A stretch of DNA of 64,000 nucleotides from Eledone cirrhosa (taxonomy: Eukaryota), in assembly GCA_964016885.1 (NCBI GenBank), contig OZ024742.1, positions 148,676,001 to 148,740,000 of the forward strand, in the 5' to 3' direction. A model generated the notes under the pieces. That model was not told the DNA's origin and searched no databases. It saw only the letters and a program-made list of their open reading frames with translations. Made by a program: the position numbers and the translations under genes. Below, one piece after another: positions 24,213 through 48,322 of this stretch. Position 1 is the stretch's first letter. Every line of letters starts with the position of its first letter.

Positions 24213-24401
24213 ATTTAACGCTTGTGAAATGTTCAATAATCTTTGATCAGTAAAGGTATGATCGGTATCGATCGAACCCAACTTTGGAATCGATAACTCA
24301 TCAGATTTCTTGATGAGCTATCGATTCCAGAGTCGGGACCAATCGATACCGATTGTACCTTGAGCTAATCGATCGCAAAACACGCGTCACAGGTGAATAA
24401 A
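24213..24401. repeat. Imperfect palindrome with family gamma hammerhead relics
   Basis: Centre ctcatcaga-tt-tcttgatgag (~24306); inner ~55-bp arms clearly pair. Confidence 0.75.
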
Positions 24402-24404
24402 CAT

Positions 24405-24485
24405 AATGATTTCTTTATTGGCCACAAGGGCTGACATCAAGAAAAATATTACAGATGGCACAGGACGGTACAGGACGGTATGATG
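24405..24485 (-). mobile_element. Tx1 (TAA family) 3'-terminal fragment
   Basis: taatgatttctttattggccacaaggg..tacaggacggta matches 1422-1499. Confidence 0.75.
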
Positions 24486-24547
24486 CTATATTGATACCTC
24501 GTTCCTATTCCTTATTATTATTATTATTATTATTATTATTATTATTA

Positions 24548-24797
24548 TTCCTTGAATCTCAGTCATTGATGTTAGTTAACTGGAAAGTCCGTTGGAATGA
24601 ATATCAAGCCACTACCTGCAGCCTCAGATATTCAGGACGTATCGGAGGGTTCTTGCTGTTCCCAGCAAGCATGCCTTTTGAAGCGTTCCAAAAAGCGTGA
24701 AGGGGCCGATTTTCTTTAACCATCCCTGGAAACTTTTGGAGATAGTCCCCAGTGCGCCTATGACAATCGGGATCACTTTGACTTCATGGCAGTTCCA
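24548..24797 (-). mobile_element. R4/Dong-like family 2, short 3' copy
   Basis: Near-identical reverse complement of 6920-7167; (TTA)n on both sides. Confidence 0.92.
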
Positions 24798-24833
24798 TTA
24801 TTATTATTATTATTATTATTATTATTATTATTA

Positions 24834-43647: not shown

Positions 43648-44264
43648 ATATTGTTATACTTTGGGAGGGTCATGCTGCCAATAAGAAACACACACACCTG
43701 TTGGTCTTCACTTCAATTTATTATAAGTTTCCGATTGGCTGGTTGGTTCGATAACCGGAAGGTTGTTTATATATTGTCATAGCTCTTTCGTCACACATTA
43801 TGTGACCTCCTCAGTGACTAGGTTTTTTATTTTTTGTGTGTCTCTCCTTTGTTCTATCCTACACCATCTTGTTTTTGTGTAATGAAGGACAAAATGAAGA
43901 CATACAGACACACACAAAAGTCAAACTAACAAAACAAATCAGACACACACAGTTAGAACAAGTAAATAAACACATAGATAAATAAATAAATGAATAAACA
44001 AACACACACACACTTGGATATAACACATGTGCAAACTAAGCACACAACACACAACACACAAGATGGTGTAGGAACAGAACAAAGGAGAGACACAAAATAA
44101 AAACCTAGTCACTGAGGAGGTCATAGAATGTGTGACAATATATAAACAACCTTCCGGTTATCGAACCAACTAACCAATCGGAACTTATACTAAATTGAAG
44201 TGAAAACCAACAGGTGTGTGTGTTGTTATTGGCAACATGACCCTCCCAAAGTATAACAATATAT
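43648..44264. mobile_element. Head-to-head inverted Penelope pLTR-like pair
   Basis: Arms ~43648-43880 and ~44050-44264; hammerhead in the left arm. Confidence 0.88.
43776..43818 (-). ncRNA. Minimal type I hammerhead
   Basis: gtca-CTGAGGA-g gtcaca taatg tgtgac-GAAA-gagc-TA-tgac. Confidence 0.85.
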
Positions 44265-44265
44265 A

Positions 44266-47200
44266 TCATCATCATCATCATCACCGTTTTACGTCCGTTC
44301 TTCCACGCTAGCATGGGTTAGACGGGTTGTCCTGTTGTGGGCAGTGTCTGGTCGGCTGACCATGCCTTGCTCATACAGGAACTGATTTTGCCTGATTTCT
44401 ACAGCTGGATGCCCTTCCTAACACCAACCTCATTTACAGTGAGTGCTGGGTATTCTTTTCCGTGGCGCCTACACGTCCACTTTACAGTGTGGGCTGGGTG
44501 CCTTTTTGCCGTGGCACCTCCATGACCACTTTGCAGTGGGAGGGTGTGGGGGCATATTGTCTATATGCTTCAGCTTCGGCTTGTACTCATGGGAGGTCGG
44601 GTACTCTGTATTACTGCGTGACGCCAGAGGTCACGGTCGTGTGTCATCGCCTTTGAGAGGTGTAATTGGGTAAGGTCGGCTTTTATCACCTCATCCCAGG
44701 TCTTCTTGAGTCTCTCCACTCCGCGGTTTCCATTGACTTCTAGTGCTCTGCACCTCATTATGCAGCTGTCACCCTTCATACGCATCACATGTCCATACCA
44801 ACGCAACCGCCTCTCCTGCACACAGAATTTGATTCCTCTTATGCTCAGTCTCTCTCTCAATTCATTTATGCTTTGCCGTTCGCGTATTACACATCCATCG
44901 GAGCATGCAGGCTTCGTTTCTTTCTAATGTACGTAAGTCTTCCACCTTCAGCGCCCAGGTCTCACTACCATGTAACATTGCTGTTCGTATACACGCATCA
45001 TACAGTCTGCCTTTCATTTTGAGGGAAAAGCCTTTTGCAGCTAGCAGTGGCAGTAGTTCCCTGAACTTCTTCCATCCCGTTCTTACCCTAGTTATTGTAC
45101 TTTCTGAACACCCACCTCCGCTGCTAATTCGGTCACCTAGGTAGCTGAAGCTGTCTACTGTTTCTACAGAGCCCTCCCAGAGATTGGTGGTACTTGTTTC
45201 TTGTGCCTGTTTGCTGATTGCTGTCCCAGCACAGCTGCTGCATGTGAAGCCTACATTCTTAATTAAGCTTCCTGATATCCCGCTACATCTCTTGTGTACC
45301 CATTGTTTGCATTTGGGGCAGAGAATGGAGTTCCTACCTACACCTTTCCTACATACTGAGCAAGGCCATTTCCCTGAGGGGATCTGGGTTCTGTTTTCTC
45401 GTCTACTTACAAGAACCTTAGTCTTTGTCAGGTTGACTTTGAGACCCTTTCTTTCTAGTCCCTGCTTCCAAGTTTGGAATTTCTTCTCTAGTTCTACCAT
45501 AGATTCAGCTAGAAGTGCGAGGTCATCTGCATACAGGAGTTCCCATGGGCATCCGGTCTTAAACTCCTCCGTTATTTCCTGCAGGACTATGATGAACAGG
45601 AGAGGGCTAAGAACAGAGCCCTGGCGGACACCGACCTGTACGATAAATTCCTCCCTATACTCATTGCTAATCCTAACTTTGCTGACTGCTCCTCTATACA
45701 TGGCTTGTACAGCTTTCACAAGCCATTCATCTACTCCTAGGTTTCTTAGAACCCACCAGATTATAGCATGGGGAACTCTGTCAAAGGCTTTCTCGAGATC
45801 GACGAATGCCAGGTAGAGTGGCTTACTTTTAGCTAGGTACTTTTCCTGTAACTGCCTCAGAAGGAAGAGGGCATCAGTGGTGCCTCTTCCTGGTACAAAC
45901 CCAAATTGCATCTCATCTAGTTTCACCCGGTCCCTAATCAATTGTGCTATAACTCTTTCTGTTACTTTCATGACCTGGTCCATCAGCTTTATACCTCTAT
46001 AGTTTCCTCTATCTAGTGCATCACCTTTACCCTTGTAGCAGTTGACAATGATGCTACTGCACCAATCCTTTCGTATGACACCTTCTAGTATTACCTGGTT
46101 ACCAATACGTGTGGTTATAGTGTGACCTACCGACCCAGATGCCTTCAGCATGTCGGCAGCTATACCCGATGGAACGGTTGCCTTCCCCATCTTCATATCT
46201 TTGATTGCCTTACTTACTACGCTGCTGCTGACTTGTACTGCTGGCCCCTCTATAGGGTCTCTATAGGGTCTTCTTCCCATGCATTCTCCTCATTTAGTAA
46301 TCTATCATAATGGCTCTTCCACGCATCTTTCTTCTCAACACTCGTGAGGGCAGGCTCACCTTTATCATTCCGGATACATTTCTTTCCAATAACATCACAA
46401 TTCTCTCTGACACACTGCCTCGCAATCTTGAACACCTCCTGTTTCTGGTCCTCACGTTGCAAAATATGCTTCAATTTTCTATCCTCTGCTTCCCTCCTAG
46501 CTAATTATACTTGTCGCCTAGCTTCCCTCCTGGCCTCTATGTAATGTACGCTGCTTCCCCCGTTCTTCCATTCTTTCCATGCCTGTCTCTTGGCCTTAAC
46601 TGCTTCATCTACCTTATTGTTCCACCGCCAAGTCACTCTCCTCCTGCCTGTGGTCTTACTCCAGCCACAGATCTCATCCGTCGCCTCTAGTAAGTTATTT
46701 TTTTAGGAACTCCCAGTGCTCTTCTACATTGAATGTCTCTATCTGTTCTTCTTTACTGTCGTAGGCGTTGAGTAAAATATCTTTAAATCTGTTACTGGCT
46801 GGGGGGTCTTTCAGCTTCCAAATCTTTCTTCTCCATGTTGGCCTCTGTTTCCAGGTTCGTCTAGTTCTGACTGTGAGGTCGTTGACAACTAAGCTATGTT
46901 GGGAGGTACATTCCTCACTAGGGAAAGCTTTTGTGTTTACGACCGTCCATCTGTCACGTCCTCTGATGAGGATAAAATCTATCTGACTAGAATGCTCCCC
47001 TGATCTATAGGTGATCAGGTGGTTGTCGGGTTTTTTGAAGTTTGTTTTACATATCGACATGTCATTGGTGTCGCAGAATCTAGAAGCCTGAATCCTTCTT
47101 CATTTCTTGTGCTAACCCCATGGCCTCCATGGACTCTATTGAAGCCGTCACAGTGTTTACCTACGTGTCCGTTAAAATCTCCTGCAATAATTAGGAAGTC

Positions 47201-48010
47201 ATTGTCGTTTGTTAGAGCAGTAGTGTGCATTAGGGACTCGTAAAATCTATCCTTAAGTTCGTCTGGCAACCCCGATTGGGGTGCGTAAGCTGATATTATT
47301 GTGGTAATTGTTTTATTCAGGACTAGTCTGAGTTTAATGATTCTTGCATTTATCACTGAGATTACTTTATCTACCAACTTGTCAGCTAGTAGAATACCTA
47401 CACCACCCATCCCATTGTCATTTCCCACCCAGTAAAATTTGTAGCACTGACTTTTTCCTACAAGGACTCTAGCAGACTTTCCTCTCCATCTAGTCTCTTG
47501 CACACAGCATACATCAATTTCCTTTCGCTCTAGCATCTCTACGATTTCTCCTGCTCTTCCTTTCAGTGTGCTTACATTGATGGTACCAACTCGGAGTTTT
47601 GGGCATTTGTCAACATTCGTGGGGAAGGGTCGATTTTTGCAGGGGTGTGTGTGTGCTTCCTGTCTCTGAATTGAAGCTTCACATGGGTGCTTGGTAGCTC
47701 GCGGATTCATATTCATTTTCATTTATTATTTCAGGGTTGCTCCATTTATTCTCAGCTCATCCATACATAACGGTAGGAAAATTCAGGGCTAGAAGAACAG
47801 TGGTGGTGGTAATAATGGCAGGGTGTGTTAGGACTGGGACGGGTGAGGAGAGAGTTAGGTAGTAGTAGAATGGGCAGGGTTTGTTGGGGTTGGTAGTGGG
47901 GGGGGGGGGGCATACTGAGGTTTGATTGGTCGAATAGGCTATGGTGGTGTAATGGGTGGGTGGGAGGGAAATTGTGAGGTAGGTAGCCATCATGGCCTGT
48001 AGCATCTCAT
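44266..48010 (-). mobile_element. RTE-clade LINE, near full length, frameshifted
   Basis: APE (VGTINVSTL, CCVQETRW, SAYAPQ, GDFNGHVG, SQIDFIL); RT (NYRGIKL, FVDLEKAFD, GVRQGSVLSP, YADD, FSYLG); RLRWYGHV; (GAT)n tail. Confidence 0.95.
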
Positions 48011-48233
48011 GGCAAAATAAACCGATAGGAGTAGATGACTTCGTAGAGACAGCGAAATGATAAATACAACAACACTAATAATAGTGTAAGAGAGAGGAAG
48101 AGAGTAGATGACTTCGTAGAGAGGCAGCATGGGAGAGAAAATGAGGGTAAAATATATATACATATATAATATATATACATATATAATATTAATAAAAAGT
48201 ATGGATGAGGTGTCAAATTTTCATTAAGTCGGG

Positions 48234-48322
48234 TGCCGCGCACGTTTCGCGATTGATCATCTCAAGGTTCGATCTATATCGATCGGGCCCTCTACTGGAA
48301 TCAAAAGCTCATCAGACATCTG
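48234..48322 (-). ncRNA. Family gamma hammerhead relic
   Basis: tgt-CTGATGA-gcttttgatt..gatcaatcgc-GAAA-cgtgcg; cleavage triplet mutated; homologous to 24310-24393. Confidence 0.6.

What the first reader, a model, noticed from the sequence alone, without database searches (positions are those of the whole stretch)
24213..48322. Family gamma: hammerheads with a conserved ~40-nt insert in stem-loop II
Seen: three diverged loci (24310-24393, 36354-36567, 48234-48322) share CTGATGA-stem-[..ggg(a/c)c..gat(t/c)g(t/a)acc(t/c)tgag(c/a)t]-stem-GAAAC. The stem II sequence differs between loci but still pairs (gctatcgatt/aatcgatcgc versus gatgtcga/tcgatatt). In the 36-kb copy the insert repeats the cleavage-site heptamer gattgta. 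Two of the three loci are palindromes. Inference: the insert is a functional module such as a tertiary contact, alternative fold or protein-binding site.
Basis: partly seen in the sequence, partly recalled or inferred. Interest (0 to 1): 0.72.

Follow-up and report, generated by a model that had tools for sequence, protein, structure and literature searches.

The report
Hydra retrotransposon hammerhead with conserved arm
The three sites are decayed ends of an abundant Penelope-type jumping gene whose hammerhead RNA has one arm stretched to about 60 bases, and two short blocks in that arm are kept as strictly as the cutting core, which likely makes them a docking site for the element's own protein.

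Summary
Observation partly confirmed. The three loci are real relatives, two are palindromes, and the ~43-nt insert exists, but none of the five hammerhead arms in the window is intact. They are decayed terminal repeats of Hydra-clade Penelope-like retrotransposons: related motifs sit directly before an 857-codon RT-endonuclease frame and after Hydra ORF ends elsewhere in the genome. Seven subfamilies share a type I, dimer-type hammerhead with a 59-62-nt domain II (published Hydra rows: 26 nt or less). Two paired 9-nt blocks change at 0.22 steps per site, like the catalytic core (0.15-0.23) and far below the stems (1.25-1.5). Covariation is strong in the basal stem, weak inside the insert. A young subfamily with open frames has multiplied with a non-canonical core (U4C plus A6U) yet keeps the blocks, and copy 5' ends pile up 25-35 nt upstream of the core, not at the cut site. 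Best reading: a cleavage-independent RNA recognition module, likely bound by the element's protein (untested). This scan already noted other long-armed Hydra hammerheads on other DNA; long arms are common in this genome.

The parts
24243..24304 (-). Locus 1, inverted arm: 5' core box, basal stem 5' strand and most of the insert; 3' half missing (subfamily C)
24309..24513 (+). Locus 1, main arm (subfamily C): hammerhead from the core to the element end before an (ATT)n run; interrupted at about 24410-24480 by a short piece of another repeat
24310..24316 (+). 5' core box, decayed (TTGATGA)
24329..24337 (+). Insert block 1, consensus form AGAGTCGGG
24358..24366 (+). Insert block 2, consensus form CCTTGAGCT
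24377..24395 (+). 3' core box (decayed, AAAAC), palindromic loop III, GTC cleavage triplet (24386-24388), stem I 3' strand
36192..36449 (-). Locus 2, left arm (subfamily A): hammerhead (C3 at 36435), first end site and the ~110-nt tail, ending in a (CA)n run
36380..36417 (-). Left arm insert: block 1 at 36417-36409, apical hairpin, block 2 at 36388-36380
36453..36618 (+). Locus 2, right arm (subfamily A): begins near the subfamily's common 5' boundary about 36 nt before C3, ends at the first end site
36488..36569 (+). Right-arm hammerhead: core CTGATAA (G8 lost), basal stem 36495-36502/36544-36551, blocks 36506-36514 and 36533-36541, GAAAC 36552-36556, GTA triplet 36561-36563
48192..48341 (-). 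Locus 3 (subfamily B): single copy from an initiator-like 5' boundary 26 nt before C3 to the first end site beside (TA)n
48230..48322 (-). Locus 3 hammerhead: core 48315-48309 intact, block 1 48296-48288 (decayed), block 2 48267-48259, GAAAC 48248-48244, cleavage triplet decayed to GCG (48239-48237)

Best explanation
The loci are decayed terminal repeats of Hydra-clade Penelope-like retrotransposons, and the insert is a predicted long extension of hammerhead stem II whose two conserved, mutually pairing 9-nt blocks likely form an RNA site that the element's reverse transcriptase-endonuclease binds whether or not the ribozyme cuts. Steps. (1) Shown: the motif lies in the terminal repeat, before a tail and the start codon at the 5' end and after a long 3' UTR at the 3' end. 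(2) Inferred from copy ends: transcription starts at an initiator-like site 25-37 nt before the core, so hammerhead and insert sit in the 5' leader. (3) Inferred, by analogy with the anole element PAc: the protein binds the leader, nicks (TA)n DNA and primes cDNA at two sites downstream of the hammerhead; copying back to the RNA start gives the short copies, and copying from both sides of the break gives the palindromes. (4) Inferred from copy ends: the RNA that is copied is mostly uncut. (5) Inferred: the blocks are held by a sequence-specific contact; a protein is the likeliest partner because the constraint persists where the core has drifted. Cleavage, if any, would need two copies paired through palindromic helix III.
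For: Hydra link: L173 has the motif, the tail and an 857-codon frame with DKT and CxCx5C motifs; L149 has a Hydra linker and endonuclease end, ~800 nt of UTR and a subfamily-B motif; 15 of 20 protein-seeded Hydra loci carry a blastn match to the motif. Conservation: blocks 4 parsimony steps in 18 sites, core 3 in 13 (2 in 13 if F is read as CUG), basal stem II 20 in 16, stem I 21 in 14. Domain II is 59-62 nt in 7 of 7 subfamilies. Pair 36-63 occurs as G-U, A-U and G-C and 39-60 as U-A, A-U, U-G; wobble pairs point to RNA. Subfamily D2, seeded by its tail: 20 of 21 copies that reach the core have U4C, 20 of 21 have A6U, none is canonical, blocks kept, 95-99% identity. 5' ends: F 18 of 29 at -35 to -32; D2 6 of 30 at -26 to -22; at or beside the cut site only one duplicated pair of 30 (F) and 1 of 30 (D2). 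In PAc, core mutants still insert and the ribozyme cuts only with protein (PMC11167929).
Against: No binding or cleavage data. Most block positions are invariant, which says nothing on pairing (2 never vary, 7 vary on one side, 1 on both sides of 13 pairs). Blocks were chosen after alignment, and five of seven subfamilies were found with queries that include the insert, so lineages that lost it would be missed. D1 to D2 differ at only about 8 of 105 sites, so 2 core changes against 0 block changes is weak alone. D2 keeps G8, G12, GAAAC, GUC and helix III and may still cut slowly. Other hammerhead families in these loci have unrelated domain II sequences of 12-114 nt, and published Hydra elements have short stems, so the insert is not needed by Hydra elements in general; a bulged hairpin in the tail, present in 7 of 7 subfamilies and readable in several published Hydra consensi, is a better candidate for the main protein site. 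In PAc most of the hammerhead's 5' side is dispensable for insertion. An ORF link is shown only for B and D; A, C, E, F and H are assigned by homology of the motif and tail.
Confidence: 0.45

Rival explanations
1. The blocks form a tertiary contact or folding aid that serves cleavage (in the dimer or with protein help) and lets the core tolerate U4C and A6U.
For: Fixed domain II length; U4C appears in both major branches (part of F; E and D2); D2 keeps all other catalytic positions; natural core variants are thought to be offset by distal contacts (PMC3088659, passages).
Against: The blocks begin about 12 nt from the core, beyond where loop II meets stem I in known full-length hammerheads (recalled geometry); stem I, the expected partner, changes freely (1.5 steps per site); copied RNA is mostly uncut.
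Confidence: 0.2
2. The blocks are DNA elements of the internal promoter downstream of the transcription start, and their pairing is incidental.
For: Copy 5' ends coincide with initiator-like hexamers in A, B, D2, F and H; Penelope of D. virilis has an internal promoter within 47 nt of its start (PMC2377424, passages); near-invariant sequence suits a transcription factor.
Against: Block 1 lies about +45 in B and D2 but +54 to +56 in A, F and H; a DPE-like pentamer at +28 fits F only and a Pol III B box fits B, D and E only (read); G-U wobble pairs and G-C/G-U/A-U exchange suggest RNA.
Confidence: 0.15
3. The insert is a conformational switch: block 1 changes partner as the RNA grows and shuts the ribozyme off.
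For: In F and H block 1 has an 8-bp complement about 25 nt past the cut site (p 0.01 and 0.03 against shuffles); adding the insert lowers the predicted hammerhead fold in A and F; the hammerhead fold is 2.5-10 kcal/mol above the best monomer fold in 7 of 7.
Against: No such complement in A, B, C, E, D2 (p 0.5-1.0); F and H are sisters, so it is one event; the competing folds differ between subfamilies; the insert raises the predicted stem II in C and H.
Confidence: 0.1
4. Stem II simply tolerates expansion; the blocks look conserved through shared ancestry and search bias.
For: Domain II lengths of 12-114 nt with unrelated sequence in other families here; ascertainment by insert-containing queries; only seven related consensuses.
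Against: Same tree, same molecules: blocks 0.22 steps per site against 1.25-1.5 in adjacent stems; D was found through its protein, not the insert.
Confidence: 0.1

Closest known systems
Hydra-clade Penelope-like elements and their hammerheads (Craig et al. 2021, PMC8557442; seen: passages, supplement parts 1, 2, 52, 53)
   Same: DKT motif, CxCx5C linker, C-terminal endonuclease, (TA)n targets, terminal-repeat hammerhead of type I with palindromic helix III, inverted truncated copies, tail.
   Different: All 26 Hydra rows of File S2 have stem II of 3-7 bp and loops of 3-10 nt (26 nt or less in all); here 59-62 nt with conserved blocks. 3' UTR of 0.8-2 kb and a tail of 110-130 nt rather than 30-40 bp. 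No listed Hydra core has U4C or A6U.
Metazoan PLE minimal/dimeric hammerheads (Cervera and de la Pena 2014, PMC4209133; seen: parts 1-2 of 4 of the text)
   Same: Type I, short palindromic helix III that needs a dimer, many subfamilies with compensatory changes, mostly solitary truncated copies.
   Different: Their 'larger than usual' helix II is 6-8 bp; no structured insert is described.
PAc (Poseidon of Anolis) hammerhead (PMC11167929; seen: main text section whole)
   Same: Two internal priming sites that explain two 3' ends; uncut RNA is the template; cleavage dispensable for insertion.
   Different: Short stem II that overlaps the start codon; protein-binding region mapped to +20..+172, mostly downstream of the hammerhead.
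Natural hammerhead core variants (Perreault et al. 2011, PMC3088659; seen: passages)
   Same: U4C and a change at A6 (A6C) are known singly, with reduced activity.
   Different: The passages seen do not mention A6U or a U4/A6 double change, nor fixation in an amplifying retroelement subfamily.

Membership tests
Hydra-clade PLE | DKG modified to DKT in the RT N-terminal region | tested here: met
   ADKT in L173 and L175 frames (subfamily D2)
Hydra-clade PLE | CxCx5C linker before a C-terminal endonuclease | tested here: met
   CNCKKRAEC in L173 and sister loci, followed by the endonuclease region; CNCK in L149 next to subfamily B
Hydra-clade PLE | RWK motif near the N-terminus | tested here: inconclusive
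   The matching place reads ILWRA in L173 and is compatible with IRWRA in L175 (read): similar, not identical
Hydra-clade PLE | Insertion in (TA)n, terminal repeats, inverted truncated copy, two 3' ends | tested here: met
Hydra-clade PLE | Placement within Hydra on an RT tree | not tested
   No reference proteins were available as tool sequences; Pfam gave no hit; likeness to File S4 proteins judged by eye
Hydra-clade PLE | Physical link of subfamilies A and C (window loci 1 and 2) to a Hydra ORF | tested here: inconclusive
   No contiguous ORF found for A, C, E, F, H; assignment rests on shared motif and tail
Type I hammerhead ribozyme | Core CUGANGA / GAAA / UH | tested here: met
   Met in consensuses A, B, C, H and most unbiased F copies; U4C in E and part of F; U4C+A6U in D2; not met in the window's five arms
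Type I hammerhead ribozyme | Stems I, II and III around the core | tested here: met
   Two-sided changes in 4 of 5 stem I and 5 of 8 basal stem II pairs; slid controls 30-34% paired against 86%; helix III palindromic in 7 of 7
Type I hammerhead ribozyme | Match to an Rfam hammerhead model | tested here: not met
   expected for a 60-nt domain II, and it does not bear on mechanism
Type I hammerhead ribozyme | Self-cleavage | not testable with these tools
   No RNA run listed; copy ends show no pile-up at the cut site
Neptune-clade PLE | Motif forms the 3' end of a Neptune ORF | tested here: not met
   The Neptune-like RT upstream of L092 belongs to a family with its own, different terminal hammerhead
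Box C/D kink-turn or Pol III B box inside the insert | Geometry or consensus kept in all subfamilies | tested here: not met
   Read from the seven consensuses; consensus motifs recalled

The most novel reading that the evidence does not exclude
A hammerhead scaffold repurposed as a protein-docking RNA: this Hydra lineage built a second copy of its protein-recognition motif into stem II, and in its youngest open-frame subfamily the catalytic core has decayed while the docking module is kept, a natural pseudo-ribozyme that shows retrotransposition selects on the scaffold and not on cleavage.
Probability: 0.28. Interest if true: 0.75.

Novelty: new variant of a known kind. Interest (0 to 1): 0.46.

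Why it matters
Why Penelope-like elements carry hammerheads is open: PMC8557442 calls their function unclear and PMC11167929 found cleavage dispensable in vitro. This lineage offers a natural series in one genome (canonical core, U4C, U4C+A6U) on a constant insert, with young open-frame copies, so cleavage and RNA-protein recognition can be separated experimentally. It also shows that thousands of hammerheads per genome escape Rfam and short-stem descriptors.

Tried and rejected
Neptune parent: unrelated nested insertion. Hydra ORF pieces next to L093/L116, L106/L117, L009, L012 were not counted as parents (junctions in mid-ORF, or own hammerheads; Hydra is abundant, 40,464 first-look candidates). 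Insert as coding sequence: every frame of A and B has a stop within the domain or just after it, and the start codon in L173 is about 190 nt downstream. Insert as an intron: no shared donor/acceptor; an acceptor-like tract 13-14 nt before the core is seen in D and F but not A. GGGCCC palindrome as a second dimer signal: absent in D2, E, F, H. Core box pairing with block 1 as a conserved anti-ribozyme fold: perfect in E, mismatched in D2 and part of F. gattgta repeat: 1 of 7. Within-subfamily conservation is flat across the motif, as expected for neutral decay, so it was not used. Metagenome pattern scan: 120 stretches, none above 12.1 bits with the family profile, treated as chance. Sequencing runs: no RNA holder listed; contigs of three runs were laid, and one run of a second coded organism gave only 5 pieces at depth 2-3, not used as evidence. 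R-scape was not available. Paper searches that found no description of this motif: (0 papers); a 2017 RNA Biology paper on PLE hammerhead variants (recalled) was not held and may bear on novelty.
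Full report
Observation. The window is microsatellite-rich animal DNA from a 3.0-Gb assembly, probably a cephalopod (inference from the repeat content and from earlier notes). The three loci align. Two are inverted pairs, giving five hammerhead arms, which a covariance model built from 30 other genomic copies scores at 41-92 bits; the next match in the window has 19 bits. None of the five is intact: changes at C3/G12, G8, C15.2 with a stem I deletion, the cleavage triplet, or a missing half. 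Rfam finds no hammerhead here or in six representative loci.

Copy number. Each locus seeds a dispersed family: 1556, 2352 and 1103 first-look candidates for the 36-, 48- and 24-kb loci (A, B, C; candidates are not copy numbers, 40 were scored and 30 fetched each time). Copies end beside (TA)n or (CA)n at one of two sites, about 50 and about 170 nt past the cut site, the second adding a tail. Many have an inverted arm at the 5' end.

Parent element. Walking upstream of B led to L149: Hydra-type linker and endonuclease end, about 800 nt of UTR, the B motif, (TA)n; L154 shows the same ORF end. A protein search with the L149 fragment (150 scored of 40,464 candidates) and 20 fetched loci, picked for long open frames or top score, gave a near-intact family; 15 of the 20 hold a blastn match to the motif, and L173 has it (5'-truncated) before the tail, a start codon and an 857-codon frame with DKT and CxCx5C, the marks of the Hydra clade in PMC8557442 (passages). 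A Neptune RT near one copy was unrelated. No ORF link was found for A, C, E, F or H.

Anatomy across subfamilies. 236 distinct copies clustered into six groups plus 11 singletons, which were dropped; B was split into B and E and D into D1 (2 copies, dropped from the consensus set) and D2, giving seven consensuses from 222 copies. All are type I hammerheads with a palindromic helix III, GUA or GUC sites, AAUAAA-like sequence after stem I, and a domain II of 59-62 nt: an 8-bp basal stem, block 1 (AGAGUCRGG), an apical hairpin, block 2 (CCYYGAGCU). Mean pairwise identity: blocks 92%, whole insert 75%, core boxes 85%, basal stem 65%, stem I 53%, flanks 53% and 62%. On the subfamily tree the blocks take 4 steps in 18 sites, invariant core sites 3 in 13, basal stem 20 in 16, stem I 21 in 14. 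The F consensus was seeded with a CCG copy; in the tail-seeded set only about 6 of 18 readable F cores have U4C, which would make the core 2 in 13. On 23 representative copies the proposed structure has 86% paired cells against 30-34% for slid controls; two-sided changes affect 5 of 8 basal stem pairs and 4 of 5 stem I pairs but 1 of 13 insert pairs, with pair 36-63 seen as G-U, A-U and G-C. RNAalifold recovers the block 1/block 2 helix unaided. These copies are related, so the counts are not probabilities. Domain II alone folds with z of -1.4 to -2.9.

Core drift. D2 reads CCGUCGA at the 5' core box: 13 of 16 protein-seeded D copies begin CCGU, and among 30 tail-seeded copies (95-99% identical; 1285 candidates) 21 reach the core, 20 with U4C, 20 with A6U, none canonical, with the blocks kept (cores read from the printed sequences where the script's offset slipped). 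D1 has a canonical core and E has U4C. U4C and A6C are reported to lower activity (PMC3088659, passages). D1 and D2 differ at few sites, so this alone is weak, and D2 keeps the other catalytic positions.

Copy 5' ends. With queries that start at the cut site, F ends fall at -40 to -18 from C3 (17 of 30), beyond -600 (3) or inside the hammerhead (10, all joined to an inverted arm); only one duplicated pair lies at the cut. D2 gives 6 of 30 at -26 to -22 and 1 at the cut. Motif-seeded F gives 18 of 29 at -35 to -32; A and H cluster near -36 and -34, B at -27 to -15 with a longer spread. Each edge falls on an initiator-like hexamer (consensus recalled). I infer a transcription start there, as for Penelope's internal promoter (PMC2377424, passages), and that the copied RNA is mostly uncut, as in PAc (PMC11167929). 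The window's 48-kb copy starts at -26 and the 36-kb right arm near -36.

Context that lowers the claim. A descriptor scan of 1.27 Mb of fetched DNA found other hammerhead families with unrelated domain II of 12-114 nt, so long arms are common here. All seven subfamilies share a second motif in the tail, a helix with a 2-nt bulge before GAG, also readable by eye in four published Hydra consensi with short stems; it is the better candidate for the main protein site. Block 2 resembles its 3' strand, a lead only. Monomer folding favours non-hammerhead folds by 2.5-10 kcal/mol, and an 8-bp competitor of block 1 exists in F and H only.

Comparison and novelty. All 26 Hydra rows in File S2 of PMC8557442 have short stem II; two plant Chlamys rows have loops of about 30-35 nt marked as deviating. 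Searches found no description of this motif; one relevant paper was not held, and the supplements of PMC4209133 and PMC11167929 were not read. Earlier notes of this scan describe other long-armed Hydra hammerheads (45-103 nt) in this and other genomes with the same docking guess; none matched this family by sequence or the core drift by words. They are unchecked notes, not support.

Verdict. A real, selected RNA module in a known kind of element: new variant of a known kind. Identity as Hydra-type terminal repeats about 0.9, selection on the blocks about 0.85, protein docking as the function about 0.45.

Noticed in passing
window 13200-13616: 417-bp palindrome (97%) with two short hammerheads whose 5' box reads CCGATAA; the same family elsewhere (L245) reads CCGATGA, so U4C recurs in a family without the insert.
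   Followed up: partly
window 30701-30735 (+): Short canonical type I hammerhead, 13-nt domain II; another copy in L241.
   Followed up: partly
window 33594-33520 (-): Hammerhead with an unrelated 49-nt domain II and palindromic helix III.
   Followed up: no
window 43483-43535 (+): Hammerhead of an abundant family with 20-43-nt domain II; in L117 a relative flanks a different Hydra ORF.
   Followed up: partly
window 43814 (-) and 44112 (+): Inverted pair of terminal-repeat hammerheads of a Neptune-like family (3166 first-look candidates for its RT piece).
   Followed up: partly
L114, L208, L252, L256, L026, L450, L220: Hammerhead families with 96-114-nt domain II, unrelated in sequence to this one.
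   Followed up: no
tail of all seven subfamilies, e.g. L179:5090-5150: Conserved bulged hairpin (CACUC.../...AUYGAGUGCU) with an interior of 11 to about 60 nt; a similar helix with a 2-nt bulge before GAG is readable in published coral, sea cucumber and copepod Hydra consensi. Candidate clade-wide protein site.
   Followed up: partly
L179:4925-4940 and L223:1490-1507: Splice-acceptor-like tract ending 13-14 nt before the hammerhead core in D and F, like the Penelope intron end at helix I; not seen in A.
   Followed up: no
L228, L229 (subfamily F): An extra G directly before the common 5' boundary in a few copies, possibly cap-derived; not counted.
   Followed up: no
L116:2051 on the minus strand; L141: Subfamily-B end or UTR joined directly to the middle of a different Hydra ORF: possible template switches between Hydra RNAs.
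   Followed up: no
window 1693-3802, 24836-26472, 61834-63956; 44862-47722; 53216-56911: Fragments of several non-LTR retrotransposon ORFs (RT and endonuclease pieces) fill much of the window.
   Followed up: no
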